A stretch of 64,000 nt of DNA from Tubiluchus corallicola (taxonomy: Eukaryota > Animalia > Priapulida), in assembly GCA_030141605.1 (NCBI GenBank), contig JAQGDQ010000945.1, positions 1-64,000 on the forward strand. Direction: 5' to 3'. Positions 39,401-61,500 of the stretch are shown here, in pieces. Numbering within the stretch: position 1 is the stretch's first letter; the number at the start of each line of letters is the position of its first letter. The notes below the pieces were generated by a model. That model was not told where the DNA came from. It saw nothing but the letters and a program-made list of their open reading frames with translations, and searched no databases. A program made the position numbers and the translations under genes.

Positions 39401-42400
39401 CTTGTAGGGCATTTTTGATTTCACAATTGCATTTCTATGATTTGTTTTTTATTTTTCAGTTAAAAGCAGCTAAACAACAAGAACCTATTCAACAAGCAGC
39501 ATTAGAAGATTTCTATACAAAAGCTGATGCAGTGTAAGTGTTTTCACGGTATAGTTCCTTTGTCACTAATATGGATAATTTTCATGCAAAGTTGTTGCAT
39601 TTGCACTATGACATGCAGCTTTTGGACAATTCTGACTTTAACATGTAGATGTTAGAATTTATGAATAATTAATATTTGTTTTAGTATAGTCCTACTTGTC
39701 ATCTAATACTTGTTAGCTAATTAGAGTAATTTGTTTATATAATAATGATAACTGTAGTAGTAGAAGAATGTGAAAGATCTAGCCCATATTACAAACAAAT
39801 TCTCCTGTCCACTGTCAATGTGCACTATTTATTCACCAATATTTACAGACTTGTTTTTAGTTTTGGGTTAATGCTTTGCTTATTTATTATCATTACAAAA
39901 TTTTCAAGGTTTCTTCACTAAATTCGTCTCCTATCATTTCTAACTGATTTTCATGGGTATATGCAAATTAAAAAACAAATTAACCATTTAATCAATACTA
40001 GCACTAACACTAATACTAATAAAATTGCCACATTGTTTTCAAGTATTATTTCTAGAGCTTACTTAATTGCAAAACCTTTTTTGATGCTGAAACTTTATAA
40101 TTGTTTGTAAGTGGAGGTATTGCCTCCGTAGAATGTAAGTGCCTTATTTTTCTCAGCGACACTTATCTAGTAGCTTGTGTGACAAGCTTCTCAGACTGAG
40201 AATGTGTCTTAATCATTGTCATAACTCTCTGGAATGCAAGAGACCGCCTTTCATTTTCTCATTCGAAATGAAGGCAAGAAGTCGTTCATATTGATTTTAC
40301 TCATATGCAGTGATATGCTGAAGGAAGAGCTAGTTGCCAAAATAGAGCATTGAATTTCAGTTTGGCAACAGCCACTTTCATGACAACTTTTGTTCTGTTG
40401 CCTTTTCAGTACGATTGACTCGCCGAAGAAAGCAAAGGCTTTGCACTTGCCACCTGCTAAATCTGAACCTAGCAAACCAGAGCCAGTTTTAAAGCCACCT
40501 CAGTTGTCACCGATTGAGAAGTTGAAGCCAAGAGCAGATATGTCAAAAATTAGGCCACCTTTGAGAAGCAGAACAGCAGATGATGAGCAGATACCTTATC
40601 AGGTGCAGTACATCTCAATGTATCCATAACTGATTCATTTCTGATAAGGAAAATTTTTGCACTTAAGCTGTATGATATTTTCTGAAGCTTTAAAATGCCC
40701 TTTTGTTTTAGGATGCAAAACCTAGTCATTTTTAGAAGTGCTTGTATGCCTCTTTACTTCTGAGCAATTGGATCAAAGTTTTGAGTAGAAATTGTATTCT
40801 TTAGAGTGAGGATATTAGAGTGAAGGTTAAAACTCAAAATTACGATAACATCGAAGTGTATTATACTGTTATATAAGTATTAGGAAATAGTCATATAATA
40901 CCTTGATTCGGGTATCTAAATGATATGCCAATTTTACCACTTGAACCAATTACTAATTGAACCACTTTTGTTTCAAAATCCTGTCAATTTTTTATAGTAC
41001 ATGTTCCTTTTAAATAGTCATGAACACTTATTTAAAAAAATTCTTTCTCATTTAAATAACGATGTGAAGGTTATTTTGGTCTTTTAGTAACTTTCGTGTG
41101 GAATTCACACTGGTATAAACAATATTCTTGTTTTGTATAAATGCGGTTTTAATGTTAAGTGCAATAATTGTGAATATCACATGAGTTTGAAAATATTCAA
41201 TATGTAAAAATTGTTTCCCTGACTGTACTTTACCTTTTAATTACCTGTAATTTTAACTTTCTGTGAAGGTGTAAATGCTGTCTTGCTTATTTTATAGGAA
41301 TTTGAAAAGCAGTTTTATGGCGGAGAGAGCAACATACCTAAGCCGATTGTCGGTGCTGGTCTCAGACACGTCTTTGATGACGATGATCACATTCTTATTC
41401 AGCCAGAGGGTGACAGTAGAATAGACTGCGGGCTGAAGATTATCGACCCAGCGCAATACAAACGAGACTTCTATGTGAACAAAGTGCCCCAAACAGATCA
41501 AGATGTACTAAAGTCACCCCAAAAGAAGCAGGTGAAATAGTTTTGCATATTTACAAGGGCCATCCTCGGTACAATAATTAATGATGTTAGAAGACATTTA
41601 CATGTGTTTCACTTACAGGAAATCAAGAATCATAGATACATAATGCTAGCAGTGTTTATATAATTTGATCTGAAAACTGTGGGAATATTTTTTCCTCGAG
41701 AAATTTTTACTACTTATACCTACTCAATTGTGTTGAATATGAAAGCTATCATATTGCCAGGGTCACATTTTGTCAAAAGTTAAACAGCATGTGCATTTGA
41801 TGCTCTTATTGTTTCTGGAAAAAAATTCGTATCTACAATCATATGATAGTCATCATCATCATCTAGAAAGATTTTTGACAGTTTTTGCACAGACTGAAGG
41901 AAGTTTTACGACAGCTGTTTACTGTTTCAGTGAATAGTCATTGCATCATGAAAAGTACCATTTTTTATTTTTTAGGTGGAAAGCTCTATTAAACTGAAAG
42001 GTCAGGTAGCCGAAGAGGCTCCCTATACTCCCATTGCTTCAGTTACCCCACCAGCTGGTGCTACAGTTACATTGTCACCACAAATGTCTCCTCAAGTTCA
42101 GCAGATCTCTCTGTCACCTCAAATTAAGCAGAAGCCACATACCGGCAAGGTTATCGTTTCTCCACTTATCTCACCTGTACGCAAACCTCCACCTGACAAT
42201 GTTACTATTACTGCACCTGTGTCTAAAGTGCATAAGCCACCACCCATTGATGTGACAGTTTCTGCTCCAGTGGTGAAGGACTATCAGCCTGCACCAACTG
42301 ACATCACAGTCTCTGCACCATTATCCAAAAAACCAGATATTCCATCCCCATCTGATGATGTCATCGTTTCTGCACCGTTGTCTAAGAAACAGGGACCTGT

Positions 42401-45082
42401 GCCATCTGACGTTACTGTCTCTGCACCAGTGGCTAAGAAGCAAGAACCTGTGCAATCTGACATCAGTGTTTTTGTACCGGCATCTAAGAAGCGAGAACCC
42501 ACACAATCCGATGTTACTGTGTCTGCACCAGTGTCTAAGAAACGCGAACCAGCACCATCTGATGTTACTGTTTCCGCACCAGTGTCCAAGAAACATGCAC
42601 CAGTGTCTAAGAAACATGAACCAGTACCATCTGATGTTACTGTTTCTGCACCAGTGTCCAAGAAGCATGTGCCTCCAGAAGAAGGAGTTACTGTCACTGC
42701 ACCTATAATAAAGAAACCTCAGCAACCCGAAGTCACCATTTCAGCTCCACTAAAGCAGCCCAGAGAACATGCCATTCTCACAAATGGCTCTATGGGGTAA
42801 AACTTTTTTGCTATTATTTTTCTTTTTTAGTACTAATATTTACTTGGTTTACTACGTTTAATTGGTAGATGCTGAAAATTAGGGTTTCTTTTTGTATTTG
42901 GTGGCTGCTTCTGGGCTCAAAAAATTGCCTCTAAAAGTTTTTTGCAGTAACAAACATTAAAATACTTGTCAGAGTGAGCCTGATCCAGATCTCAGGATTT
43001 TCATGGAGTTTGAGAGAACTAGACTTTGATCCTGAGCAAGCTATACCTTGAAATTACTGTGCTTGTTATTAAATTAATAATGTATTCGTATTAATAACAT
43101 AGTCCTATTAAACAGTTGTTCCTGAACAACCTGCAGCTATGATTAACTCTTTATTTCAGGTTTAGGTAAATTTAAGAACAGAGAAAGCCTATGATTGCAT
43201 TGACATTTGTGTACTGAAAGTGCTTGCTTATGCTTACTTTGTGAAGATTAACATTAGCTTATCAGCGTTGTTTGTCACCATATGCTTTTATTGTCAGTAG
43301 TAGACTATCTTTCTTTTACTTTTGTGTCACTAGCTAAACTGATGTAAACTAACCTGTATTAATGAGTGGATGATCTCATAAACAGTTATGCGTAATTCAG
43401 AAAAAAATTATTGTCTGTATTTCATGTTTGTGCATTTAGAGGGGATTGAGTTAATTTCTTGTATATTTTGTGGAATAACCAGCTCATTAAACATCCAAGT
43501 CAGCAGCCATTAATATGTTTGAGCTTCGAAATTGATTCCAACTAGTTTTTTTAGTTTGCATTCGGTTCAAACCCAAAATTATAAATTCGAGTAATTCAGC
43601 ACTTCAACTGCATCAGCTCTTTATCATTAAAATGTTTTAAACGTCATATCATTAGCACTTCTGTGCTCAATTTTTAAACAAATTATTAGTGTTTTTACTG
43701 CAGAATGAAATCAAGTAATATGCATGATCTTTGTGAGAAACTTTTTATTAGTGATTCAAAAATTCGTTCAAAAATCTTTAAAATTGAATTCGAGTTCGAT
43801 TCAGATTCAGAAATACTGAAATTTGGTTTGATTCAAGTCACATATTCGATTCAAATTGAATTCACTTACTGGTAGAGAATGTTCACCCCTATCCATTAAC
43901 CATTTTTCTTAAGCTACCAATTTCACTTTCAACCATTCATTAACTAATCACTGATCCATTTGGTCCAGTACTATGTGAAAAACTTGTCTCCCTATTTGAA
44001 AGACTAATTGGTTCTCAATTTCTACAGAGAAGAGTCTATCAATGTTCAAACACCTTTTAAAGACAAAAATAATGTTAGACGAGAGAAGTCTGTGGATAAA
44101 TCACCCTTGCATCAACCTGAATCAGGCATTATAGTCAACACTGTTGTAAAAGGTAATTATTATATTTATTAGAATATATTTCACACAATGTAATTGGATA
44201 GGTGCCTACTAAGACCATAAATTTCAGGCTTGTATTTAGTTAATTGATGATAATTATTTGCCTTTTGAATGGCTGGAGCGTGAAGTATGAAAATCTATTA
44301 CTATTTTGTTTGTTGTAAAATGTTTTCCATACTTTTGTTTACAATATTATTAACAGCACATTTGCAGAAGTCATAATTTGATATATCATGTTTTTTTAGA
44401 TAAACTTCCCACTAATAAGTTTGAGACGACAAGTGACACTGATTTCAAAGTGAAATTGGCTCAGAAAAAGAAGTAAGTATATCTTGCATTCTGATGTAAA
44501 TACTCTGTTTTTTTCAAGGTCTGATTATTTTTGAATAACAAAAAACCTCTGAATTGTATGTGCAATTTTTACTACAATTTTTGCCCATTAAATACGTTTT
44601 TACATAATATTTGTAAAAATAAGTAACCATTGCTTACCTAAAAACAGCTTTTATTAATAAGATTGTATAATATATAATTATTTAAGACTGTTTTTATTTG
44701 TTCTGCAGTGATTTCAAGGAAAAACTAATCCTTGAACAACATTCATTATATTTTAACGCATACTTAGAAACTTTGAATTACCACGTAATATATGCACATA
44801 AAATGCCTTGCTTAAAAAGGCAAACGAAAGTTTAAATCATTCTTATCTCCCACCAAACACCTTGCTGCGGGATATCTAAAAAAATGATGTAAGCTGGTGG
44901 ACAGCACGAAGCCATGCATAACAAAACTTCAGCAATTCATCCACAAATTCTGCTATTCTACCTGATGAATTCTTTGTTTTAATCACTGGATCAATTATCA
45001 ATGCCTATGCCTTTAAAGCTTCCCAAGGGACTTGGCTTTTCCTTTAAAAAAGTTAGTAATGTTCAAAGATCTTTTCAAGCAT

Positions 45083-45131
<49 letters not shown>

Positions 45132-47318
45132 GCAATAAATGCAATTCAAATTTAAAATTGTATAGCAAACAGCCAAAATTATGTAGCAAATAAAATTTTC
45201 AGTAGCATTAGAATGCATTTGATAAGGTTACATGTTTTTGTATCTTCTGTAGGAATGATGAACTTGCCAATTTGCCCTCAGTCAAACAACTGAAATCAAA
45301 ATTTACAGAGCAGGATCAGCCAGTGCTAAAGGTACCAGTATTTCTTGTTGTAGATAGTATAGATGTGTATTGTTTAATAAAATAACCATTGGTTAAGATT
45401 TCATGTTTCCGTAGAATGCTAGTATTCAGTTTTAGTAGCAAATTAACCTGATTACCTATCAAACTTAAAAAGATTCTGGCATTTTTAAGAGTAAATAGAT
45501 AATAATCTTTTATTTTTCTACTAATGATAATAATTGTTTTTGTTTATGCAGTTGCACAGCATAACTGCGAGGGACCTATCTCGGGGCAACTTTGAGAGAT
45601 TAAGGCACCAGCGTTCTCCCATGAGCCCTGATCATCCTGCTGACATTACTGTAAATACTAGCAATCTCCAACAGATGCAGGGCAATGATTTGATGTTTAG
45701 TGCCCCTAATCTCACTCACAGCACTCCGGTGAAGAAAGAATCATCTAAATCTTATAAATTTGTAAAGACAAATCGTTTCTATCAGGACGACAAAGACAAA
45801 ACCGTGAGTCAGCCGGACTTGTCGTCTGTTGGCTTGCATGTACCAAAAAATAAGGACTTTCATCTCACTGCTAATAATAGTTTTTATTATATGGCTAATG
45901 ATCTGTCTCCACCAGTAACAGTGCCTTACCGTAGTGGTCAAGTAAACCTAAACACTTCGAGTCCTATTCTTTATGGTAGCCCCACTGAACAAGTAAAATC
46001 ATCTTCAATCAATGTGCAAAATCAACCTTTTGTCTCTCCTAATCGTCCTAATGATGTTCCAGTAATGACATCATCGACACCGGGTCTGATGTCAACTAGT
46101 CCAAACCGACGCGAGGTAAAGAGGACGTTCAGTAGCAGCCGTAAAACTGAGACAAAAACAAGGTCAAATAAGCATGGTGATCCTTCACTTCCTGTGCACA
46201 GCATGCCGGATTTGGTGCATGACTTTAGGGAGCCTAATGAACCAGGAAACTTATTGAATTCTCGAAAGAAATTTGACAGAGAAGATGACTTACCACACGC
46301 CATACTCGATAAACCTACAACAAGCTTGAAAACGACTAAAACGGAAATACATCGCAGTCCTGATGGAAAGAGGAAAACAGAAAAAGTTACTAAAGTGACG
46401 CGGACGACGACGACTACGACAAAGACAGTGAAGAAGCTTCTGAATGACAAAGGAGAAGTTGTGGATGCTGATGAACCAGTAGCAGATAGAGCAAAGCAAA
46501 CACATGACACATCACCGAAAGAAAACGTCAAGAATAATGTTGAACCACCACCAGATTACAATATCAGGGAAGTTGCTCGCACTCCTTCACCGGATTACGA
46601 AACTAAGAATCTCAAATCTCCTGATATCGATTATCCAGGGACGGAACATTTTTGGGACAGACAGGGCTCTACGAACTTGTATGCAGAACCTCAGTTTCGG
46701 CCAATTTCTCCTGAATATTTTGAGTCTATGGAAGAGTCTTCTCGATCCAAAGTTCACCGAAGTCAGTCAGCACGTGAGCCACGCCACGTGCGACCCGAAA
46801 AAATGCGATTGCGAGAATCATATACACCTGCTGCTAATCACCCAAGAGTGAACCAGCTGAAAGCTGCCAGCTTTCAGGACGTTACACATTCCAAAAATCA
46901 ACATCTCACTAGAAGTCATGGTGAAGAGGTTGACCGTAGCAGACCCAGGCCGGGGACAAATGAAATTTCCACCATCAAAGAAAACTACGAGATGGGAAAT
47001 GAAAGCAGGCCTTTTGCACAAGGCAATCACATAGCAGCAAGCAACCCGAATGTGACTCGGAGTGATTACCAGAATACCCCCCTTCACACAAACTCGATAT
47101 ATTCTAACCTATCTTCCAGTCAGCCGGATCTAAGCAATGTCCATTCCGTCAGACGTAGCCGAGAGGAACCTCTTCACTTGCAGCGAGTGAAGAAACGCAA
47201 GCAACCAAGCGCTGTACTTGCTAGAGCAAGCTTCTGGGATCAGAGAGTCGAACAGAAGAAAGTCTCCGATCAGGAAGCAGGCTTAGAGTACTATCCTCGA
47301 ATGGACCCAATAAATTAA
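19088..47318 (+). CDS. MYRIP: MyRIP/melanophilin (Slac2)-like Rab27 effector with two I-set Ig domains and a Pro-rich repeat array; ~1960 aa, 26 coding exons
   Basis: Phase-compatible GT-AG exons: 19088-19197, 23270-23491, 24324-24442, 25188-25346, 27017-27100, 29236-29339, 29864-29944, 30461-30565, 31308-31442, 32443-32633, 32963-33142, 34247-34484, 35070-35172, 35449-35628, 36262-36432, 37126-37260, 37889-37992, 39279-39374, 39460-39533, 40410-40602, 41298-41531, 41976-42796, 44028-44152, 44400-44472, 45253-45331, 45552-47318 (5883 nt, open throughout). SHD1: MGRKVNLAYLRPDECEKILSVVQKDLDLREKETQRL. Zn finger: HFNEKHCMRCC...CVECKYFVCKEC...WVCNVC. SHD2: DWFYFNVRQKFRHFGSSKVIRSLYK. The symbol reflects N-terminal similarity only. 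A likely 5'UTR donor lies at 18322/18323. Confidence 0.85.
22518..22900. repeat. (TA)n microsatellite followed by a degenerate (AATGC)n-like satellite
   Basis: TA run at 22518-22565, then repeated TGCAA/TGTAA/TGTGA pentamers. Confidence 0.75.
27877..28260 (-). mobile_element. Probable LINE 3' end with an (ATGTCT)n tail
   Basis: (CATAGA)x5 at 27878-27909 followed by TTTTATTTA, which is AATAAA on the minus strand. This layout is typical of CR1/L2-group 3' ends. No coding motif confirmed. Confidence 0.4.
30955..31040 (-). mobile_element. 5S rRNA-derived segment (SINE3-like relic or 5S pseudogene fragment)
   Basis: Minus strand GACCGAAGTTAAGCAA-N10-AGTCAG-N6-GATGGGTGGTCG matches the 5S internal control region CACCGAAGTTAAGCAA-N10-GGTTAG-N6-GATGGGTGACCG (recalled from memory) with the same spacing. 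The 5S termini are absent. Confidence 0.55.
32121..32424 (+). mobile_element. tRNA-derived SINE, copy 1, with (TTA/TGA)n tail
   Basis: B-box region GGTCGTGAGTTCAATAC. Body ATAGTCTCTGTTATGTAAGTGTAGATTTGTTATTTA...GTTAATCCAAAAGCCGATTTTGAATAAAGG then (TTA)n. Aligns by eye with copies 2 and 3. Confidence 0.8.
33717..33916. mobile_element. hAT-family MITE, 200 bp
   Basis: TIRs CAGTGGCGGCTCGT and CAGTGGAGGTTCGT (reverse complement). Perfect 8-bp TSD GAAATAAC at 33709-33716 and 33917-33924. Internal GCAGCACCCC repeated twice. Confidence 0.9.
35070..37260 (+). other. Two tandem I-set immunoglobulin domains (4 exons) of the MyRIP-like gene
   Basis: Ig1: PSFRLKPKDCIIKAGDPVRF...GTKPIDVFWYKD...YLEIYDTSIDDAGEYLCVAVNEVGECSTYFALSV. 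Ig2: PPIFKVKIRNQKVTEGGPAEFMCIVDGFPIPSLTFFRNG...WTLVIH...FKAVVKNKLGTAECSATLTV. Confidence 0.88.
42185..42760 (+). repeat. Coding tandem repeat, ~11 units of ~17 aa (51 bp), consensus SDVTVSAPVSKKxEPxP
   Basis: Directly visible in exon 41976-42796, including an extra 21-bp APVSKKH duplication near 42580-42618. Confidence 0.92.
45088..45130. repeat. (TA)n microsatellite
   Basis: Pure TA run; similar runs occur at 16558-16576 and 31891-31931. Confidence 0.9.
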
Positions 47319-50300
47319 GAAGTCATTACATTGTTCCTGTAATGTTTTAAAGGAAGCTTCTTGGTAATGTGTTTCTTTTGGCTGGCTAATTGGCTGTTTT
47401 CCAGAAAAGGAAATTGGATAAAAGAAAAAAAAGAGACAGTGTAAAATAGCTTTTTAAATGCCTGGTGGCTTGTCGTTTATTCCAAGGGAAGAATTGTAAA
47501 AAATATAGCATATTAATGCTAAAAATAGACATTTTCTATGGTAATACGTTCCTTTGTAATGATGTTTGCATTGATTTAACATGTGTTCTAATGAAATTGA
47601 TGTAATAATTGTAAATTATTTAATCTTGAAATTAATATTGTTTTCTTCTGTTTAATGTAAAACTACTGGTCTATAGTTATTAATTATGTGGTGCTAATAT
47701 ATAAATTAATTTTTCTGCAAGTAATATTAAAGTTTGTTTGGAGTACCGCAAGTCTGAATACAACCTAAATACACTATAATTTGTCAAATACACTTGTATT
47801 TACTTGTACGTGTTAATTGTGTTAATTCTACTGGTATATGTCTGCATTAACAGCCGCATGTCTATGTCTGAAAGTCCAGCATGTTTTATCATTTTTGGTC
47901 ATTTGTATATCAAATAAAAAATTCTGATCTAGTGTTTTTTCACTTAAGTGAAACCCTAACGTTTTGGATATTCAGGTCCATTTTTTTGTAAAAAAATTGT
48001 ACTGGTCAATGTAATTTTAGAACATGATCTGATTAGGTAGACCTTTTATATTTTGGCATTTTCCCAAAAAAACGTGACTAGCATCTGCCCAATTTTTGCC
48101 AAGTTTTGACAAACCATGCATCATGAAGGTTTTGAAAGAAGTTCTTTAGCTCTCTGAAAGAGGAGGAAATAGGTGACAATGCACTCACTGTTGGTTGTTT
48201 TTAAAAAGAGCTCACCTGTGTAAATTAGAACAATGCAGTTTTAAATTCCAGTTTGAGGATTTTTCTTTAGGAGAACTTATAAGATGCATGGCCATAGTCA
48301 TCACGCCATCATTGACAATGCCCAATGATCATAGCCCTTTATATTTTGCTATTTTATTTAAATTTGTATGACTACAACAGTGTACAAGTACACTCATCTT
48401 AGTTTGGTACACCTTGCATTATATGTAAAATGCATTCTATTATAGTTATGTATATTTTATTAATAGTTTAAGCAATTCTTGTGTGAGTAATTGTTTAATA
48501 ATGTTACTAAGTACTAATGATGACAGTAAGTCTGATAAGGTGGTTGTGTCAGTACATATTAATATTATTATTGTAACCTTTTTATGTTTACCTTTTTACA
48601 TCTTTTATTTCTTGGTTGTTTTATTCCTCCATTAACGTTTGAGCATAGTTTTATAAAGCGCATATTTGTTTATAGTGGTTATTAACCTACTATTTTGTTA
48701 CTGTGTGTAGCCGTTGTTATTGTTACATGCCTATTTTCACTAGTTTCTCTCATTTTAGCATAATAGTTTTTAATTTTGCTATTCAGTGCATAATATTCAA
48801 GAGAATCATGCGTTGTGTAAACGAGTAAAAGTGTTTTTGCATAGTTTTTACATTTATACATGCACTGTGTGTAGGCTTATACACACAATAATTAGGGTAA
48901 AGTGGGGAATATGAACTCCTTAAGCAAAAATTGGGTTTTGATCTACTCTCATTAGGCTTCAACCCTTGCAAGAGTGTTGTGCAGATGGCTGGGGCTGCCA
49001 GTTTATTATGTATTTCAACATTTATCGACTAATTATACAAATATTTGTAAGAGATCGAATTCAAAATTAACCAATCAATCAAATTACCTCAATCAGTCTT
49101 TTTTTGTATTTCGGCAATTTTGAAACTGTCACAAGTAGGATATCCTAATAACAACGGGCGGCTCGTGCGTCATGAAACTAAAGATTTGTTCTAGATGTTC
49201 TGTGAATCTCTTTTGATTACGGTTTTTGCATGAAACTAGCACGTTTTTTTTAAAACTGGTGATGCATGATACATACCTTGACCTTGTCACATTTCATTCA
49301 ATACTTTCTTCTTGGACAAAAATGTCAGTTCACTCTCTGATTTACTGTTCCATTGTGCCATGTTTTGCTTCCGCGCATATGTGTAGGTGATATCTTTTGC
49401 CGTAGCCTGCTGTCGACTTTTATGGGCTATGAAAGTGTAATGCTTGAAGTTGGTAAAATTAAATGTCTTTTAAGCTGGGAAAATTTAACACACCTGAGAA
49501 CCTTGACTTTTACGCGGAAATTCATCGTCTGTAATTCGGTTGCTCTATTAAGCTAGACTTAGTTATAATTGATTGATTTTACAGTCTAAAAATTAAAGTT
49601 TATGATGCACCAAAGCGTTCAGTGTCTGGAAGTGAGAATTGAAGAAAACGAATGTTGTCAGTGGTTCATGAAACCAAAGATTTTGTCGGGCCAAGCTGGG
49701 TGTTCCTGTTTTTTAAGCGTCTAGCGTGCAGCGTCTGTTCCTCAACCAGCTATTCCTCTGGGAATTATTATACGAATAAATAACATAAAAAAGAGAAAGC
49801 ACTGCAGAAATTTGATGTCACCCATTTTGTTTTTTCTAAGAAGAACAGACGCATTGATGTTGACATACCACTCAGTGAGCACTAGATGCTGGAGAACCTG
49901 GTGCATTAAAAGCAATGAATTGGCCCTTGACCTAATAATTTGGGGTTATCAGATGACCATCAAAGTAGACTGTTCCACAATTGCATGGTTATAACAGCAA
50001 CAGTGCAGTATTTACTTTGAGTTTGCTTATAATCAGCAAAAGTAACAATATCAAAAGCAAATATAAAAGTATGTTACTATTTACATTACATAATTATGAA
50101 TAAATTTTGATATTTACAGTGGTGTTTTGTTTTCGTTAAATTAAGATTTCCGAATGATAGAAATCGTAGAACCTTGTATATGTTATGATAATTATATAAT
50201 ATGCCACGTAAACTATCATTACAGATGGAGAACAGAAGCATCGAGTATAAAAGATGGCATTGGCAGCCGTGAGATTCAAAGTTTCAAATGTGAGCTTAAT

Positions 50301-51567
50301 TCAGAGTACATACTATAGCATGTTTTTAGGTTGGTACACAATGACACAAAAGCAGAAGCTCAGTAGGCCTAACGTGGCGTTAACCTGGCATTATCTACCC
50401 GCAGAATAGCTGCGAAATAAAAATCAATAGGAAATATCTGCAGAAAAAATAACGCATAATTAATTAATGTCTGATTAACGAGTGCATTGAAAACAATATA
50501 AACCAATTTTGTCTATTCCGCATCCCATAACGCATACGCATTCCGGATATCAGGTAAACGCCACTCAAGACACGTCGTTGCCCCACCACTAACACTACCG
50601 CCCACAACAAGAATAGCAAATTATTCGGACCCTCATAAATGTTTGATTTCTCTCCCTCTTCAGCAGGCAATAATTTGTCTAAATCAGATCCCAATAGATA
50701 AATCACGAAAATTTGCCGCGTGTTGATTCCTTTTAGAGCCATAAGTAATCAGGTTAATTACTAATTACTTTGCATACACGCTTAATTAACAAGATTCCAT
50801 GTAAGTTTTATGACCCTGTGATTCTGAGAGCTCTGTTTTATTAATGTTCGGCAACGCGAAGGATTGCATGATGATAGTAACAGTTCATGAGAAATTACGG
50901 CAGTGGTACCAAAGTGAATCAATGGCGGATATATTCGCCCGCAATTGGTTTGTTTTAGTTCGCGTAACGGGAAGGATATCTTTTCATTTTGAAAATTCTC
51001 TGGAATATTTAGCATCTAATGTTACCTGGAAAATATGGGCACAAAAAGGATGGTAAATGACAATGTGACTACCTTAAGGTGATTACTTTTCATGTGTTAT
51101 TTCTAGTGCTTCGACTAACGAAGTTATTATTAAAATAGAATCCGTAGAAGAAGGCATTATAAACAGTGCGCTAACTAAGCTTATGCAAAAAAGAATGAAT
51201 ATTGAAAGGCTATGAAAAAGTGAAACACTGTGGTTGTATATATAACACGTATTGCGAAACGAATTCTGTCTGGATGGAAGATGACGTAAACATCGAAGTA
51301 TTGTCATTAACACAGATTGACAAGTGATACGTATATGGTTTGTCTGCAAATAGTTGACTATTATGAAACGTACTACTTTTTCCATTTTCAGGCTATGGCA
51401 TATGCAGGAAAAATCGTAAAGAGCTTCAAGAGGAACAAGTCACACTAGGATGCCGTTTTTGTATCTAACACGTAAAGTTCTAAGTCTAAGCACAAGTCCT
51501 GAATAGTTCCTCATTACACGTAACAAAAAAAATTCAGGCGAGTTTTAACTGCACCTATAAGGTGATT

Positions 51568-54500
51568 ATGCAGTCAACAACGGGTCACAACGGCAAACTT
51601 ATTGATTTCTTCATTGTTGTTACTGTTTTGTCATTAACATGTTTTATTTTTATGTACGGTTTCACGGAAAATGATGTTTTCATTAAGGCTTCATCACAGT
51701 TAAAACATTCGGGGAAAAAACCGCGTGTGACATTATTCATAGCAGTAGCAAGTGCTTACAGAGATAGATTACATAGGAGAAACATCTTAAGAAGCACGTG
51801 GCTGAACGTCTCTAAAGCCCAAGATGTCAGTTACATGTTCTTTACGGATCACATCAACAACAAAGGCGAAGAAATTAATGAGTTCTACACTCGCGAACTA
51901 AAAGAAGAACAGTCTCTCTACGGAGATCTGGTGTTTACAGATGTGCCATCAGGTCTGAACAATGCCCGGAGATTATTATGGATTATGGATTGGGCTCTAA
52001 TGCGATATGATTTTTCTTACTTTTTAAAGGCCGACGATGATGTATTCATTTGTATGGAGAGACTTCTGTCTGAGCTTCCATTCAGACCTAAGCAACTTCT
52101 TTATTGGGGTTTTGCAAACTGCCGACGAAGGACAGGTAACTAATTCAAGAATAGCATGTAATTCTCCAAAGCACACATTGTTTATGACTTTTTGGTTAGA
52201 TAGTTCAGCGCAGTTGTAAGACACCATGCGTAGGTGATTAATTTTTGTTATTATTCGCCATGATTAATTACGTACACTTAGAGTAGGCGAGCCGTCAATA
52301 GTGTTGTTTTCCTGGTTACTTCTTCTCGAGAGTCGGTTACTGCTAATTCTTTCAGGCCAGAAATCCGACTCATATGCAAAGTCGAGTCGGTCGAGCGGCA
52401 CAGTTATATGGTAGGTCTTCTTACTGTTCTGAATTCTTTCAATGGACGCATCACACGCACATTCTGCATTTCAATGTCAGTTTTAATATCCTATTCAGCG
52501 TAGTTTTCATGGGCGGATTTAGGTTTCTCGGTAATATTTATACGAGGTTTGATCGATGGCTTCATAGAGTTGATCACATTTTTATCAGTAGCAGCAGCAG
52601 AATGTTTATTATCCTCAGTCATACTTGCTGATGGAGGGAAACTGTAACCGTCGCACTGTAAGTGAGGAATGTGCGCATTGAATAATTCTCCACTCTTGCA
52701 GTTTGACCTTGAGCTGACCTTTTCATGCTAGCTATACCAGTTGCAATTGTAACGCTGTTTTTCATGCAGTTTTGTACAAACATTTCGATTTTATTCAATC
52801 GATCTAATATAGAAATTTACTCCAGGTGAGACTGCTGGCACTCTGTCAAAGTCAGTTGCGAAAAATAGTAGCATACGCTATTCCTGATCAGCTTTCTGCA
52901 ATGCGGTAAACACGTCCCCGACATTTAGCCTTTTTTGCGGATTTTAGGAAAGTCCCCTTTCTGGTGATTGTTGTGCGCGATGATATTGCATTTATGTTGT
53001 AGTTGTAGCTACATTTATGTTGTCATCTTTGTAAAAGTTGCAGACAGTGGTTTTAGTGTCCTCGATTGTGTATTTATTCGTGTAATGAATGCTGCAGGAC
53101 ATAATGCACAGGGTTACCACTGGTTTCATCCTCGTCGTCTGACATGTTTCATCAATGGCTCTACACAATAGCCATTCAATCACCTGGCATCCTCGTTGAT
53201 TACCTGCAGTGAATTATCTGCACCAGTACTCTACATGGATACAGATTATAATCGTAATGGTTTTTTCTATTTCTTAAATTTAGGTCACACATTTGAATGA
53301 TAAACGTGCAGTGTCACTAGGCCTTGCTTCAAAATGCTTACACTCATACAAGTTGTATTTATCAACTCACGTTTAAGTTCTACATTTTTAGTAAATCAAC
53401 TGAAAGAAAAACAATAGTACGTTAATCGCCATGTTTTCTCACTGTCTGAGCATATTTTTCTGTCAGCTGATATCACATTAATGCAATCACCAATGTTTAC
53501 TAATGAATTGATTTTGACTTTAAAGCTCTGTTAGCAAGTATTTTGCTTGATCTTGACCTTGAATGATCTTGAAACATTATTTTCTGATAGACCATATGCA
53601 TTTATATCAGCCGGTAACACGTTTATGCCATTTTAAATGTAACCTAGTTGAGTTGTTTTGAGCAGCGTTTGGTGGCCACTTTGAATGTAAAGCCTTATAA
53701 CTTTTTCCTCAAAAATGAATTCCAGGGAATTTTGAATATGTTTTTTGGACTACTTTCTGGGGATTTTGAATACGTTCTTCTGGACGCTTTCTGGATGTCT
53801 GTGCAAAAATTCAGCTTCACATTATTTTTGTCCAGGTCATATGTTTTTTTTTTGGGGGGGGGGGAGAGTAATTTGACTGTACTATAAGTAAAGGTCACAT
53901 CTGCTAGGCATAGTTCGCAGGAAATGGTGCGACTAATTCTTTATTTATTTGATAGCCATTCATTTGTTTTAGCCAAAACAAAATAACAAAAAAGATACGG
54001 CACTATAAACTGACCAGGGAGGCCTTTACAAGGTGAGAAGACCACCGCATGACGTACAAGCCGCCCAAAGTAAAGTGCAGAGTTACATGGTGAATATAGA
54101 TAATAATGAAATGTGACCATAGCACTCTTTTACATGCATTATCACAAAAAGAAAAAACATGTCACTCCAATAGTCATGTCTGTTGCATAACTAACCGAAA
54201 AGAAAATCACAGTCACATTTATAATGTTTTAAAAGTATAGTTCACTCACACAACAATTGGTAATATTACAAGAGAAAGAATATGTGTACAAAAAGAAATT
54301 TTTAATGTATTTTTTAATCCTTGATAAGAATGGGTGAAAACATTATCAATAATTAACTGCGGAGTATTGGACACTAGTGCGTAAATAATATAATCATTTG
54401 AGTTTTCTTTCGGCGAAAACATGTACATGTTCATAAACATGTCGACGTACTGTATTATCTTTATAATGAATATTATACGAGTGAAAACCTGAACCGCTAA

Positions 54501-55732
54501 AAACAGGTATAGCGTAAAAATAGACGGACAGTAAATAATTATATAAATCAGAATAAAAATTTTAATTGTCTCATATTTACAGTATGCTGCTGTTTAAGTA
54601 TAGACATAGGTTTTTAGAAATGGTTCAGCATGCAGGCCAAAGCCTCACGCCAAAGCTGCTCGTTGCTTCGCAACAGGCGCTATATGCAGAGTATGGCCTT
54701 TTTCTGTAATTTAGTTAACCGATTATCATCCCAGTTATCACTCTATCCCTAATTCAATAAATGATAGTTTATTTTTGATATTATTTAAATTAGGATACAA
54801 AATATTAAACAAGCTCATTTACGGGTAGCGTGCGTTTATACCTGTTCGCTATTCCTTTAACTCGAAAATTTGACGGGCAAAAGCATTAATCCAAGTGAGC
54901 TGCTCATTTAGAAGAAGTCTAAGAAATGAAAATGTTTTTACTTGTTCCAGCGCAATACATTCAATAGACAAATTCAATGATAATTCGGGGTGAAAACCAT
55001 AAATCTGCTCAGCCACATTTAGAGACAATAAGTTCAACATTTCACTTGAGTTGAGATAATTTCTGAATTGCTATCAAATTGATCCAAATCAGGTAATAAA
55101 GATATCATCTGCAAACGTGAGCGTGTTAAAAGTAGAAATAGTCCAGTGTAAATCATTAAAATATATGATGAACACACCAACAACTTTTTGTACTGAGGTC
55201 CGTTTGTGACTTTCTAGAGCATATTCTCATTACTTTTGCAGGTGGTACTTTCATAGACGAACATTTTTTGTTACTGAGCGTAGATCTTGTGAAGGTTTTA
55301 TTAGCCCAACATCAGAGAAACGAATTACAGTGCACGGATTACGCCGGGTTTTCCTTGGGGTCGTGGCTAAGTTCCTGGGAACGAAAGACGCACAAGAAAA
55401 TTAATTTTTTTGCTGACAACTCTCGCCATTACTCGAACACTAAAACACATTTTTCCATAAGTGGTAGGAATATACAAACATATGCTGATCTGTGTGCTAA
55501 ATACGTAAGTGTTCATCGATGGTCTTTGAAAGAAGAGATAGGTCTAATATGGAGTACTAGAAGGAATACGGCGCATAGTTATGCTGTGCCTCGGTTAAGT
55601 GAAAAAGTGTGCAGTTGGAAAAAGAGAGGTAACTTTATCCTTGATCGAGAACAGCAGCGACAACCCTGTCAAACTGCTGTCTTTGAAAGTAAATCAGACA
55701 TATGGTTAGGATGGAATCCCGTCTGGACATAA
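51568..55732 (+). CDS. GT31-family beta-1,3-galactosyltransferase-like type II membrane protein, 352 aa, 2 exons
   Basis: Exons 51568-52135 and 55242-55732 joined by a phase-1 GT-AG intron (1059 nt). Signal anchor FFIVVTVLSLTCFIFMYGF. GT31 motifs LFIAVASA, RRNILRSTW, LKEEQSLYGDL, YFLKADDDVF (DxD), LYWG, LLSVDLV, LGSWL and VSVH. Confidence 0.88.
52300..53120 (-). mobile_element. Decayed non-LTR retrotransposon ORF1 (CR1/L2-group type) in the GT31 intron
   Basis: Colinear fragments in mixed frames: TVCNFYKDDNINVA; DVFTALQKADQE*RMLLFFATDFDRVPAVSP..ILDRLNKIE; KTYHITVPLDRLDFAYESDFWPERI. These fit the FY.xDEI..AK, FVA.DL.RLP and SF.V.VP...FWP.GI pattern of this ORF1 class. Confidence 0.65.
54860..55200 (-). 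mobile_element. Decayed LINE reverse-transcriptase fragment (CR1/L2 group)
   Basis: FIIYFNDL...FADD at ~55175-55104, then NLLSLNV and VKTFSFLRLLLNEQLTW, corresponding to LFLIYINDL, FADDT, NKLSLN and KFLGVxIDExLTW. Confidence 0.8.
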
Positions 55733-57732
55733 TGGAATAGAAGCATCACTTGACTCTAGTTGAGCAAGACAGAGCGTGGCAAAATGGCAGCAAATCATAT
55801 GCGGCATGGGATGGAAATTTAGGCTAGCATAGGGCCCTCAAGATTGGGGGCACTCAAGGTTTGGAAACATTTGTTGAAAAATCTGTTTTTTTCACCAAGG
55901 TTGTGTTGAAATATGTGCTAATTTGGTTTGCGATAAATAATAAAAGTAATATTTCTGACAAACAAAAGACAGCTATTCTAGTTCATGTCAGGAATTTGCA
56001 ATAAGTTTCCTTCAAGCTATGTAAATGTAGCTAAAATATATCACCAATGAAAAATATTCAAGACATTTGCAGGCGAGTTAGAGGATGCCTCTGTCTGATG
56101 AGCTCCATAATTTCATTAGCAAAGGTACCCCGAAAAGTCACAATCCGACCCTGGAAATACCACTTGGAAACAGATGAGAGGTGATCGTGTTTTGCATGGA
56201 AATACTGTTTGGAAGCAATTTCATGTATTGCTCGAATAACTAACGCACCATTGAAAGTAAGTCAGACACGACTTAAGACTTACGATGGAAATACCTACTT
56301 AGTAGCAAATATGGCTCTGCTGAGATGGTATTACCACATGGAAAGCAGTCACAATTTTGTTATAAGACGAAAACAACACACGAAAAAAAATCAAAGCTCT
56401 AAAAGATTTGGCAAAATACAAATACGACTGACGGATTAAGGCGTGAAAGTTCAGCTTTTCTTTATGCAAACTTAAAAGTTGCAGAATTAAACTATTAAAT
56501 CATGGTACAATAATTCTAAAACAAAAAACAAAATAGCCCGCTCTACACACATTAAAAATATTAGAAATATTTGTAATATTCTCGATATATTGCAGAATTA
56601 CTCTAGATATAATGCTGATCAAAATAAAAGTTAATCAGGATTTGTGAAGACCACAAATGGTAAAGGAAAGAAAAGGAAACAATCACACCAGGAATTTCGT
56701 TAGAATGGAACTCTCGCTATGAAAGTCAGCATCATCATCACCACTCGGAAACTGAAAAACAGCGATTTGAGAACGTCCTGGTTTTCAATTTGCAAACTCA
56801 CTTTGTAACGATTTAGCACAAACAAGGAAAAGTGAACCATCAAAGAAGAGATAAGCTAGTAAAATAAAAAGTATAAACACATGTTTCTGCGTGCTTAACG
56901 CTTCTATTAAAGCTCAGATATACAAGAAATAATTTGGCTTTCATCATTAGTGAGAAAAACTAATACGTAAGTTCTGTAATAATACAATTTTAAGAAGTGC
57001 AATTTAACTGTCTTAACACATCGCTAATATATGAGAAACTCAAAATAATAAATAAAAGTTATAACGACTTTGCAATTTTAGCTTTGGTTAAAACTGCAAT
57101 CATCATGTGCTAAGTGCGACAATGTGTAAAGCTACAAGTAAAAAAATGCAGATAAAAGTTAACGTACTGAAAATGCGCTTGAAGAGGCAAATTGTCCACA
57201 GAAGATGATATGAAATTTTAAAGAATTTTTTTTTACAGTTTAAACTTGTCAGTGTATGTATTATAATTATGTAATTGTTTTGTTGACGCACTTTGTGTGC
57301 AACGTGTCGTCGAGCTGGAAATACAGAAAAAACTTAATACCACAAACAAAAAAATTCACAAACAAAACTGTAACATTCGGTCCTATAAAAAAACATTACG
57401 TCATAACGTAGGTTAATTACACTTGAAAAATTGAAAAAGTTTTTACGAAAAATGATGGGACTAATATTTTGTCTGGGAGCTATTATCAATCGGACTGACA
57501 ATATTAAAAATTCTGTGAAATGTTGCTATTTGGAATCTTGAAATTGAAGTTGGCAGTGCTCTTCATAAGGGTCATCTCTGCTTCTCTTTTAACACCATTA
57601 CGCATGGTGTTAATGTGTAACAACACAATTTTCTGTAGCTCAAAATCTACGCAACATGATCTTATCTGGTTTTAAAGTGCAGTAGCATAACACTTGTTTA
57701 TTAAAAAATCAATAGCAACGCAGAATTCTTCG

Positions 57733-58600
57733 TTATCTCCGTCTATAGTATCTTCTCGTGTAGTGATCGTAACGCGGTGGATACGGATACAGCAATTCTG
57801 GATAGAATGGTTTGTGTACTCTGTCCAGAACATCCTTTATATAACCCCAAGGCGTCTTGATTTTGCCAATGTCAAACCGTTCTCCGTGCATGTATGGTTG
57901 TCCATTATCGTCGTAACTGCCTCTGCAGAGCACTATCATCTGAAAACGCGCGGAGAATTCAAATTTTTACTTGCAAATTACAATGAAGTGAATACATGAA
58001 CGTTTTTTCTTGTTCTGCTAACAATCACCACCTTTCCGTCATCATCAACACAACCACCGCCACTGCCATCTTCATTATCATGATGGCCAACATCAACATC
58101 ATCATTAAGATGATAAAATGTCCACCGTGTCTACTTCGAAGTTAGCATAATTTATTATAACCCTTTATTAGGCCTTCCAATAAGTAATGAAAAAGAAAAA
58201 ACGCAATAGGAGAAAAGGAAAAAAAATCAAGTGTTCTACAGAACAATAGAATTCAGCTCCGTTCGTCTATTGTAGCTGCACGAAGTTAGAATATAGTTAC
58301 ATGTAATCACTTAGAAAATCTAAAATCTAAAATCTAAAATATAAAAATAAAAAATATAAATAAAATAAAATATATAAATATAAAATTTAAAAATATTCGT
58401 TCAAATTAATAACGTATAACATGTTTAGCCTTGATTATAAATAGCAGTTAATCGACTAATAATAAGCAAAAAACTATGCCATCATCTCACTTACGTAAAA
58501 AATAAGCATTTTAAACTAATAGCAGTTACTTTTTCGAGTACCAGAGTATAGTGACCAAACTTACTCCCAAAAGGATTAGGCAAATTATCTTCAAGTTCAT
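57733..58600 (-). CDS. Small secreted Tyr/Arg/Pro-rich peptide, 80 aa, 2 coding exons, no recognised family
   Basis: Exon 58565-58600 (MNLKIICLILLG, donor GGA|gtaagt) joins exon 57733-57939 (acceptor ttttcag|ATG) to give MNLKIICLILLGMIVLCRG-SYDDNGQPYMHGERFDIGKIKTPWGYIKDVLDRVHKPFYPELLYPYPPRYDHYTRRYYRRR*. The splice builds a signal peptide. In-frame stop upstream of the ATG. AATAAA at 57697-57702, ~30 nt after the stop. Confidence 0.72.
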
Positions 58601-59313
58601 CTCGGATTATCGTTCTTGTATCAGCCGGCTTAGTACAGGCACTGCTTTAGCTCACAAACTCATAGCATCTGCAAAATTCTCCTGTACCTGAATAATTTCT
58701 CATTCACACTCCATTGCATGACCTAGTCCCGATGACATTTAAACTCTTCTACCATTCAAACTTACGAAGGTGTGAGGCTATAATTAGAGAAAATGAACAA
58801 TAGTCTGAGTTCAACCTATAGAGTAGTGCCTAATTGTAAAGGAGAGAAATATAGTAAAGTAATGCATGAACGAACAAGTGTACCATAACGATCACTCACA
58901 TCTTTAATAATTAGATATTCGGCAAATTGTATACCACTAATTTCAAATTCAAACTGCATATAAATTTAATAAGCAAAAGATTAATTTTAAATTAAAACTT
59001 AGCAAAAAAAAACTTAAAACTTGAAAACTAAGGATACACGGATAGGCACTTCAAGCGTAAATTAGACAAAATTATTTATTTACGAAAACATTTAAAACGA
59101 GAGTAACGCCATGACCGTTTTTGCACGTGATTATACCTGGTTGAGTGTAGTCCCAGTTCTACCAGTGTCTCAGCCCCTACCCCAAATGTCTTCCCTGCAG
59201 TTTCTGATTGTACAAAAAGCTATTCAGTGTTATGTATTGTGGCTCCTATGCCCATACGCTCCTTGAAGAATACCGGCTTTAAGAGGATAGGTGCACATCT
59301 ACCCCACATTGCC

Positions 59314-59762
<449 letters not shown>

Positions 59763-60949: not shown

Positions 60950-61500
60950 ATTGCATGCAGACGCTGGGCGCTTTGGTGTATCATCTTAGGCTTTATACTA
61001 TAATAGCTTTTCTATAAAAATGAGACATGCCACACGCCAGAAGCACTACAACAGGTTCCTGAGACATTATTATACGCAACACGTATTTTGTTTAAGACTT
61101 GTTTATAGTCTTAAACTATCAGTCTTATACTAGTATAGCCTAGTGGTAATACGTCCGGTTTCCGTCTGAGAGGTCGTGAGTTGAATACTGCGGCCGGGGA
61201 ATACCAAAGACTTTAAAAGTGCTACCTGCTGTTACCTTGCTTGTCGCATGATATTTAGGGTAAAGCATATACAGTCGGCAGTTAATTGTTCAGCCACAAA
61301 CCGACTTTATAATTATAAGACAATATTATCAAATTTCGTCGTTAACATGGACGGGTTTTTCGATTAATGAGTTAATGCGTGCGTAGAATAGGTGCGTATC
61401 ATTTTTGTCGTCCGCATAGTCAGCCAAATCAGAACAAATTACATAACCTAAATATTTTTTCTTATGAACTAACACGCAATGTATGTGAAACCAAGGGGAC
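60950..61500 (-). mobile_element. Decayed LINE RT C-terminal region interrupted by SINE copy 3
   Basis: KKKYLGYVICSDLAD...LFYARINSLI (61480-61360) continues on the far side of the SINE as NKIRVAYNN...CSASG (~61095-61035). This matches the KYLG..I..DL.D..., YAR.N.L, LRVAYNN and CSAS motif order. Confidence 0.7.
61131..61320 (+). mobile_element. tRNA-derived SINE, copy 3 (internally deleted 3' half)
   Basis: A box TAGCCTAGTGGT, then TTTCCGTCTGAGAGGTCGTGAGTTGAATACTGCGGCCG and ATACCAAAGACTTTAAAAGTGCTACCTGCTG, homologous to copies 1 and 2. Confidence 0.8.

What the first reader, a model, noticed from the sequence alone, without database searches (positions are those of the whole stretch)
57733..58600. 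Hidden orphan secreted peptide rich in Tyr/Arg/Pro: candidate DOPA-type adhesive/structural or antimicrobial peptide
Seen: a 36-nt exon missed by the ORF track splices in phase 0 to the 68-aa ORF and completes a signal peptide (MNLKIICLILLGMIVLCRG). The predicted 61-aa mature part has no Cys, 10 Tyr and 8 Arg, an acidic start (SYDD) and a strongly cationic tail (YPYPPRYDHYTRRYYRRR), with a nearby polyA signal. Known: Tyr next to Arg/Lys is characteristic of DOPA-modified adhesive proteins such as mussel mfp-3/5, and an acidic-N/cationic-C layout occurs in Hydra arminin antimicrobial peptides. Inference: a lineage-restricted secreted effector. I recognise no homologue; the resemblance is compositional only.
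Basis: partly seen in the sequence, partly recalled or inferred. Interest (0 to 1): 0.75.

Follow-up and report, generated by a model that had tools for sequence, protein, structure and literature searches.

The report
Orphan secreted tyrosine-arginine peptide gene
This is a real, spliced gene of an invertebrate (likely a priapulid worm) for a predicted secreted 61-residue peptide with a tyrosine/proline/arginine-rich tail and no detected relatives, which most likely serves as a cross-linked building block of cuticle, egg coat or glue, with an antibacterial role nearly as likely and neither tested.

Summary
The gene is real. An RNA contig from a related lineage joins exon 2 at 57939 to a sequence matching exon 1 at 27 of 30 letters, and all 3 changes are synonymous. 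The Tyr/Arg frame looks selected: low amino-acid entropy (2 of 20,000 shuffles), the best codon score of three frames, and GC falls at its stop. No homologue was found in five collections. Tyr sits next to Arg/Lys no more often than chance (3 of 10; 3.5 expected), the 'acidic' N-part is only net -1, and arminins are confined to Hydra. The closest compositional analogues are mussel myticalin A (Pro/Arg/Tyr antimicrobial peptides) and low-complexity Tyr/Pro cuticle proteins; the membership tests for both fail. One caveat is new: in the relative, at least 29 foreign letters precede the tail, and in the tail's frame they begin with a stop codon, so conservation of the tail as protein is unproven. 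Best guess: Tyr-cross-linked extracellular matrix peptide (0.4); antimicrobial peptide (0.3). The scan had no note on this sequence, but noted compositional look-alikes in an oyster and a sea squirt. This is a genuine but ordinary kind of orphan. Interest 0.3.

The parts
58601..58700 (-). Probable 5' untranslated leader (about 100 nt); in-frame TAA at 58609-58607; a possible acceptor (TTTTGCAG) ends at 58669, so an upstream non-coding exon is possible
   Evidence: The relative's loose end is 136 letters, i.e. 36 coding plus about 100, but only the first 30 letters were shown; sequence. The extent is inferred.
58565..58600 (-). Coding exon 1 (36 nt, MNLKIICLILLG): n-region and most of the hydrophobic core of the predicted signal peptide
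   Evidence: 27 of 30 letters match the relative's spliced contig end; 3 of 3 differences synonymous (P about 0.03 if neutral)
57940..58564 (-). Phase-0 GT-AG intron, 625 nt, GC 0.30
   Evidence: skipped in the relative's contig record 8
57733..57939 (-). Coding exon 2 (68 codons plus TAA)
   Evidence: records 8 and 7 of X1 cover 57806-57939 and 57665-57799 without gaps
57919..57939 (-). End of the predicted signal peptide (MIVLCRG); predicted cut after Gly19 (Cys at -3, Gly at -1)
   Evidence: Hydropathy per residue; the (-3,-1) rule is recalled; SignalP was not available
57817..57852 (-). Predicted amphipathic helix, mature residues 23-34, net charge 0
   Evidence: AlphaFold2 single-sequence model H23-34, mean pLDDT 62, pTM 0.21; hydrophobic moment up to 0.75
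57736..57816 (-). Tyr/Pro/Arg tail, mature residues 35-61: Tyr 25.9%, Arg+Lys 25.9%, Pro 18.5%, Gly 0, net +5, pI 10.0; dibasic sites at residues 55, 59 and 60
   Evidence: frame test
57799..57805 (-). Point where the relative's contigs break and at least 29 letters absent from the window precede the tail
   Evidence: tables 7 and 8
57697..57702 (-). AATAAA, candidate polyadenylation signal (use not shown)
   Evidence: relative's contig runs past it to about 57480
57480..57732 (-). Probable 3' untranslated region
   Evidence: Record 7 lies on 57665-57732 and again on 57480-57501 at a collinear distance; GC 0.32-0.35

Best explanation
This is a spliced two-coding-exon gene for a predicted secreted 61-residue peptide that likely works as a small structural component of an extracellular coat (cuticle, egg or larval envelope, or gland secretion), where its cationic Pro/Arg tail would bind an acidic matrix and its clustered tyrosines would be oxidised into covalent cross-links. 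Shown: exon structure, splicing and transcription in a relative, synonymous-only change in exon 1, and a protein-like bias in the Tyr/Arg frame. Predicted: signal cleavage after Gly19 and an amphipathic helix at residues 23-34 that could mediate self-association. Inferred and untested: the tissue, the matrix, and the chemistry (peroxidase dityrosine as in nematode epicuticle and resilin, or tyrosinase quinone tanning).
For: Junction and expression in a relative. 3 of 3 synonymous exon-1 changes. The 5' part of exon 2 differs at 8 of 134 letters against 29 of 230 in two non-coding pieces (one-sided P=0.03). Tail frame: entropy P=2/20,000, codon log-odds +3.8 against -4.0 and -1.2 in the other frames, six Arg codons drawn from both the CGN and AGA families, GC falling from about 0.45 to about 0.32 at the stop. 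7 of 10 Tyr lie in the last 27 residues among Pro. Insect low-complexity cuticle proteins are Pro/Tyr-rich (PMC12426002 passages), Tyr motifs recur in cuticle and eggshell proteins (PMC2932725 abstract and section 6), and dityrosine is documented in nematode epicuticle (PMC9612446 section 17). Several hallmarks of processed antimicrobial precursors are missing: no dibasic site between the N-part and the tail, no amidation glycine, no paralogue in the 64-kb window. Earlier notes place the genome near priapulids, which moult a cuticle (recalled); not tested here.
Against: No GYR or YLP motif, chitin-binding domain or any Pfam family, and no tandem repeats as in epicuticlins. The Pro/Arg/Tyr composition meets the definition of myticalin group A, which are antibacterial. 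The taxon is only from unreviewed AI notes. No tissue, stage or proteomic data exist. The relative's contig may not translate the tail. Cleavage at the RR of residues 55-56 would remove 5 of 8 Arg and leave net -1. The ESM Atlas neighbours (76-77-aa arthropod hypothetical proteins, score 0.78-0.79) are at noise level and are not counted as support.
Confidence: 0.4

Rival explanations
1. It works like a linear Pro/Arg/Tyr-rich antimicrobial peptide (myticalin A type, by convergence): the secreted peptide, or a C-terminal fragment, would bind bacterial envelopes through the cationic tail and act non-lytically or through the amphipathic helix.
For: Arg 13%, Pro 11.5%, Tyr 16% in the mature part, each above the 10% that defines myticalin group A (PMC5577615 section 5). 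One PRY motif; myticalin A has PRY repeats. Myticalins A5 and A8 are broad-spectrum (passages). Small, Cys-free, orphan, with a structural difference between close lineages just before the tail, as fast-evolving immune peptides often show (recalled).
Against: pI 9.4 (tail 10.0), below the myticalin value of more than 11. No Lys-Arg site with an anionic C-terminal extension, no amidation glycine, no PRP motif. Net +4 is modest for seawater. No tandem paralogue in the window, whereas arminins and myticalins are multigene families. The predicted helix has net charge 0.
Confidence: 0.3
2. It works like mussel mfp-3/5: a DOPA-bearing interfacial primer secreted from adhesive glands, with Arg displacing surface cations.
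For: Size, no Cys, 10 Tyr and 8 Arg. DOPA adhesives arise in unrelated phyla (PMC4275877 passages).
Against: Tyr next to Arg/Lys is not enriched (3 of 10; shuffle mean 3.55; P=0.76) and Gly is low (6.6%, none in the tail), whereas Mefp-3's flexibility is tied to glycine. No sequence relation to any mfp. No evidence on glands or tyrosinase co-expression.
Confidence: 0.1
3. The Tyr/Arg tail is not a conserved protein part: the window carries a lineage-specific deletion, a divergent allele or an assembly slip at 57805-57800, and relatives end earlier or read the last 60 nt in another frame.
For: The relative's record 7 begins with 29 letters unlike the window. Read by hand, they start with a stop in the tail frame and are open only in the +1 frame, which stays open in the window until a stop at 57744-57742. 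They are 48% GC (hand count) and poor in pyrimidines, so they do not look like an intron end of this genome. Depth arithmetic on table 2 leaves no other record on 57432-58300. Record 7 (12 of 135 different) is not significantly more conserved than non-coding pieces (P=0.18).
Against: The tail frame is far more protein-like than the +1 frame (entropy P=2/20,000 against 4,388/20,000; codon score +3.8 against -4.0), though the tail was picked for its composition, so that P is post hoc. The stop is the first three letters of a contig. The 29 letters end in YAG with a branch-like CTGAT about 20 nt upstream, so a retained intron end, a paralogue, a repeat or a chimera is possible. Record 7 lies without gaps through the tail and 68 nt beyond.
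Confidence: 0.12
4. It is a pro-hormone-like precursor: convertase cuts at RR (55-56) and RRR (59-61) would release a 54-residue, near-neutral signalling peptide.
For: Dibasic sites only at the C-terminal end; residues 1-54 would be net -1; the N-part is conserved.
Against: No glycine before the dibasic sites, no repeated peptide units, no Cys, and no match to any Pfam family. The Tyr/Pro bias is not explained.
Confidence: 0.08

Closest known systems
Myticalin group A of Mytilus (PMC5577615; section 5 and passages read)
   Same: Signal peptide plus a linear, Cys-free cationic region with Arg, Pro and Tyr each above 10%; PRY motif; found by in silico mining; lineage-restricted
   Different: No Lys-Arg plus anionic C-terminal extension; pI 9.4-10 rather than above 11; one PRY rather than repeats; phase-0 intron inside the signal peptide rather than a signal in one exon; no sequence similarity detected; no paralogue in the window
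Low-complexity Tyr/Pro cuticle proteins of ecdysozoans: insect CPLCP/CPLCX (PMC12426002 passages), GYR/YLP-motif proteins (PMC2932725 abstract, section 6), nematode epicuticlins (PMC9612446 abstract, section 12 part 1, section 17)
   Same: Secreted, mostly disordered, Tyr/Pro-rich; short first coding exon carrying part of the signal peptide (Asu-epic-1 exon 1 is 55 bp)
   Different: No GYR, YLP or chitin-binding match in Pfam; no tandem repeats; much shorter; Arg-rich rather than Ala- or Val-rich
Mussel foot proteins mfp-3/mfp-5 (PMC13709183 and PMC4275877 passages)
   Same: Small, secreted, Tyr- and Arg-rich, Cys-free
   Different: Low Gly, Pro-rich, Tyr not preferentially beside Arg/Lys, Tyr clustered at one end, predicted helix in the middle; DOPA not testable here
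Hydra arminins (PMC10945409 and PMC11767717 passages; the original paper PMC2786370 is not held)
   Same: Signal peptide, charge rising towards the C-terminus
   Different: N-part only net -1; no processing site before the cationic part; arminins are confined to Hydra and form tandem clusters

Membership tests
Myticalin A | Arg, Pro and Tyr each above 10% in the mature peptide | tested here: met
   Arg 8/61, Pro 7/61, Tyr 10/61; definition
Myticalin A | Mature peptide pI above 11 | tested here: not met
   pI 9.43 whole, 9.99 for residues 35-61
Myticalin A | Lys-Arg site followed by a 35-75-aa anionic C-terminal extension | tested here: not met
   The ORF stops directly after RRR
Myticalin A | Conserved signal-peptide consensus and gene layout (whole signal in one exon, phase-1 intron in the extension) | tested here: not met
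   Different signal sequence, split by a phase-0 intron
Myticalin A | Antibacterial activity | not testable with these tools
   Needs MIC assays
Mussel mfp-3/mfp-5 | Sequence homology | tested here: not met
   0 hits in Pfam, in 1.84 billion representatives and in PDB sequences
   3 of 10 Tyr; shuffle mean 3.55; P=0.76
Mussel mfp-3/mfp-5 | Glycine-based flexibility (Mefp-3) | tested here: not met
   Gly 6.6%, none in residues 35-61; feature
Mussel mfp-3/mfp-5 | Tyr hydroxylated to DOPA and secreted at an adhesive interface | not testable with these tools
   Needs mass spectrometry and localisation
Hydra arminin | Confined to the genus Hydra | not tested
   Feature. The taxon was not determined here; unreviewed notes say priapulid-like
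Hydra arminin | Clear bipartite negative/positive charge | tested here: inconclusive
   Residues 1-22 net -1 (pI 5.4), residues 35-61 net +5: a gradient, but a weak one
Hydra arminin | Tandem paralogue cluster | tested here: not met
   No second copy in the 64-kb window by tblastn or blastn; the rest of the genome is not held
GYR/YLP-motif or chitin-binding cuticle proteins | Match to a GYR, YLP or chitin-binding profile | tested here: not met
   0 Pfam families at E up to 10 for three sub-regions
Nematode epicuticlins | Tandem 49-51-aa repeats with GYR and YGD motifs | tested here: not met
   61-aa mature part without repeats or these motifs; feature
Tyr-cross-linked matrix proteins (works-like claim) | Insoluble, dityrosine- or quinone-cross-linked in a cuticle or envelope | not testable with these tools
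   Needs fractionation and proteomics

The most novel reading that the evidence does not exclude
It is the founding member of a priapulid-specific family of tyrosine-oxidised glue or coat peptides, or of Pro/Arg/Tyr antimicrobial peptides convergent on mussel myticalin A, whose active tail is switched on, off or into another frame between close lineages by an indel at one hotspot just before it.
Probability: 0.12. Interest if true: 0.6.

Novelty: new member of a known kind. Interest (0 to 1): 0.3.

Why it matters
If the taxon call holds, it would be a sequence-level candidate for cuticle, envelope, glue or defence chemistry in a phylum for which my four searches (listings only) showed no such peptide. 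At 61 residues without disulfides it can be synthesised and tested directly. Small secreted orphans of biased composition are common in animal genomes, however, and the same scan noted look-alikes in an oyster and a sea squirt, so without function data the gain is an annotation rescue: a real gene that ORF-based calling misses because its signal peptide is split by an intron.

Tried and rejected
Whole genome: not held, so paralogues and tyrosinase or peroxidase genes outside the window could not be checked. Run search: 1 run listed, share of words 0.00, 'no RNA holder listed'; that run nevertheless laid 13 of 70,053 records at 85% likeness. The laid stretch was 45000-58300, so exon 1 was seen only as a loose end, and the letter differences in exon 2 were among the 49 of 89 rows not shown; dN/dS for exon 2 could therefore not be computed. 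No contig lay on 51216-55655, which holds most of the neighbouring glycosyltransferase gene; this is no evidence either way. Homologue searches, all blank: 5.8-billion collection near length and longer (2 candidates, none at E up to 10), 1.84 billion representatives (exon-2 product only), Pfam, PDB sequences, exact look-up, metagenome contigs (191 pattern matches, 0 confirmed), earlier findings by sequence. ESM Atlas: top scores 0.79 and 0.78, noise level; no named cluster. Taxon from the neighbour gene: one search gave 19 candidates and none at E up to 1e-10; one search gave only generic Galactosyl_T clusters; so the taxon is unresolved by my own tests. Structure: single-sequence model with pTM 0.21, too weak for a fold search, none run. 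Two short motifs from the relative's foreign letters were not found in the window with up to 1 mismatch. Repeats around the gene: only chance-level AT-rich pairs. One search had one exon-1 difference entered one place off and printed a false non-synonymous change; one search corrected it. Rejected: chance ORF or artefact (junction in RNA contig, synonymous changes); the +1 frame as the window's coding frame; membership of mfp, arminin, myticalin or epicuticlin families (membership table). The original arminin paper was not held. No supplements were opened; myticalin alignments and MIC tables were not seen.

Full report
Observation. The coordinates hold. On the minus strand an ATG at 58600 opens a 36-nt exon ending at a GTAAGT donor; a 625-nt intron (GC 0.30) ends in TTTTCAG; exon 2 runs 57939-57733 in phase 0. 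The product has 80 residues. An in-frame TAA three codons upstream fixes the start. Residues 5-17 are strongly hydrophobic apart from one Gly, preceded by one Lys and followed by Arg-Gly. This fits a signal peptide cut after Gly19 by the recalled (-3,-1) rule; SignalP was not available. The predicted mature part is 61 aa: 10 Tyr, 8 Arg, 7 Pro, 0 Cys, net +4, pI 9.4.

The gene is spliced and expressed in a relative. One public run was listed (X1, contigs, RNA by guess, same species label). Laid on 45000-58300 at 85% likeness, 13 of 70,053 records fit, all under 95% alike, so X1 is a related lineage and not this strain. Record 8 (276 nt) lies on 57806-57939, and its loose end behind 57939 matches exon 1 at 27 of the 30 letters shown; chance expectation is 2e-7. 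All three differences are synonymous (about P=0.03 if neutral; one search had one place mistyped, corrected). The 5' part of exon 2 differs at 8 of 134 letters, against 29 of 230 in two non-coding pieces beside the neighbouring gene (one-sided P=0.03). The positions of the exon-2 differences were among 49 rows not shown, so dN/dS could not be computed. Contig depth cannot rank expression.

The tail frame looks selected in the window. For the last 21 codons, amino-acid entropy is reached by 2 of 20,000 stop-free base shuffles, against 4,388 of 20,000 for the +1 frame. A codon model from 1,035 window codons scores the three frames +3.8, -4.0 and -1.2 bits. Arg uses CGT, CGG and AGA; Tyr uses TAT and TAC; GC falls from about 0.45 to about 0.32 at the TAA. 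The test is post hoc, because the tail was chosen for its composition.

Record 7 (374 nt) lies without gaps on 57665-57799 (12 of 135 different), but its first 29 letters are unlike the window. Records 8 and 7 share no end overlap, so at least one piece between them is missing, and the depth table leaves room for no other laid record there (hand arithmetic). Read by hand, the 29 letters begin with a stop codon in the tail frame and are open only in the +1 frame, which in the window ends at 57744-57742. They are 48% GC and pyrimidine-poor, yet end in YAG with a branch-like pentamer about 20 nt upstream. An insertion, a retained intron, a paralogue, a repeat or a chimera all fit. Record 7 is not significantly more conserved than non-coding DNA (P=0.18). 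So conservation of the tail as protein is unproven. Record 7 also runs about 220 nt past the AATAAA at 57702-57697, so use of that signal is not shown.

No relatives. Blank results: the 5.8-billion collection at near and longer lengths, HMMER over 1.84 billion representatives with the exon-2 product, Pfam, PDB sequences, exact look-up, metagenome contigs. ESM Atlas neighbours are at noise level. There is no paralogue in the window; the genome is not held. These collections may lack this animal altogether: the neighbouring glycosyltransferase also found no close relative. So 'orphan' means undetected, not proven absent. The neighbours are a Galactosyl_T gene converging on it and a FYVE_2 Rab-effector-type gene; neither suggests a functional link. 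Several unreviewed notes on this genome call it priapulid-like; I could not test that.

Anatomy. Residues 1-22 are net -1; residues 23-34 form a predicted amphipathic helix of net charge 0 (mean pLDDT 62, pTM 0.21); residues 35-61 hold 7 Tyr, 5 Pro and 6 Arg plus 1 Lys, no Gly, net +5. Dibasic sites occur only at residues 55, 59 and 60, with no Gly before them; a cut at 55-56 would leave a net -1 peptide.

How it likely works. My best reading (0.4) is a small matrix protein: secreted, held by its cationic tail on an acidic matrix, then fixed through tyrosine oxidation. The basis is the clustered Tyr among Pro, the lack of precursor-processing marks, the single copy in the window, and precedent: Pro/Tyr-rich low-complexity insect cuticle proteins (PMC12426002 passages), Tyr motifs shared by cuticle and eggshell proteins (PMC2932725 abstract and section 6) and dityrosine in nematode epicuticle (PMC9612446 section 17). 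Every functional step is inferred. The main rival (0.3) is a linear antimicrobial peptide: the composition meets the Arg/Pro/Tyr criterion of myticalin A, whose members A5 and A8 are broad-spectrum (PMC5577615 section 5 and passages), but pI, precursor layout and gene structure do not. The DOPA-primer reading (0.1) loses its stated support: Tyr is beside Arg/Lys in 3 of 10 cases against 3.55 in shuffles, and Gly is low (PMC4275877 and PMC13709183 passages). The arminin reading fails on charge and, if the taxon notes are right, on range (PMC10945409 and PMC11767717 passages). A non-conserved tail (0.12) and a pro-hormone (0.08) remain.

Novelty and verdict. No family claims it, and four literature searches on priapulid antimicrobial, adhesive, cuticle and orphan secreted proteins listed nothing like it (listings and abstract starts only; subscription papers are not searched). 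The kind, a small secreted orphan of biased Tyr/Arg/Pro composition, is well known, and this scan has noted look-alikes in an oyster and a sea squirt. Verdict: a real gene, correctly spotted; a new member of a known kind; function open; interest 0.3.

Noticed in passing
window 51571-52135 and 55242-55732 (+): Two-exon Galactosyl_T (GT31-type) gene converging on the peptide gene. Exon 1 matches PF01762 (E=1.9e-11); exon 2 has no Pfam match at E up to 1 and reads TDYAGFSLGSW where GT31 enzymes usually show an ED-containing catalytic motif (recalled), so it may be an atypical subfamily.
   Followed up: partly
window about 23142-47318 (+): Large FYVE_2 (Rab-effector-type) gene region with a Pro/Val/Ser repeat ORF (41976-42797) and a 594-codon ORF (45534-47315); X1 contigs lie on the latter with 24 of the 40 listed changes synonymous. 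That these ORFs belong to one gene was not tested.
   Followed up: partly
window 58669-58690 (-): A TTTTGCAG acceptor-like site 68 nt upstream of the ATG, followed by two very short upstream ORFs; an upstream non-coding exon or a trans-spliced leader is possible, since the relative's contig has about 100 letters before the ATG that were not shown.
   Followed up: no
window 59334-59525: Long ATT/GTT microsatellite about 730 nt upstream of the ATG.
   Followed up: no
window 59460-59736, 32138-32425 and 61142-61264: A dispersed repeat of about 290 nt (76-78% identical copies) flanks the upstream region.
   Followed up: no
window 55860-55930: A short stretch between the glycosyltransferase and the peptide gene is matched by two X1 contigs with loose ends on both sides, likely a small repeat shared with other transcripts.
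   Followed up: no
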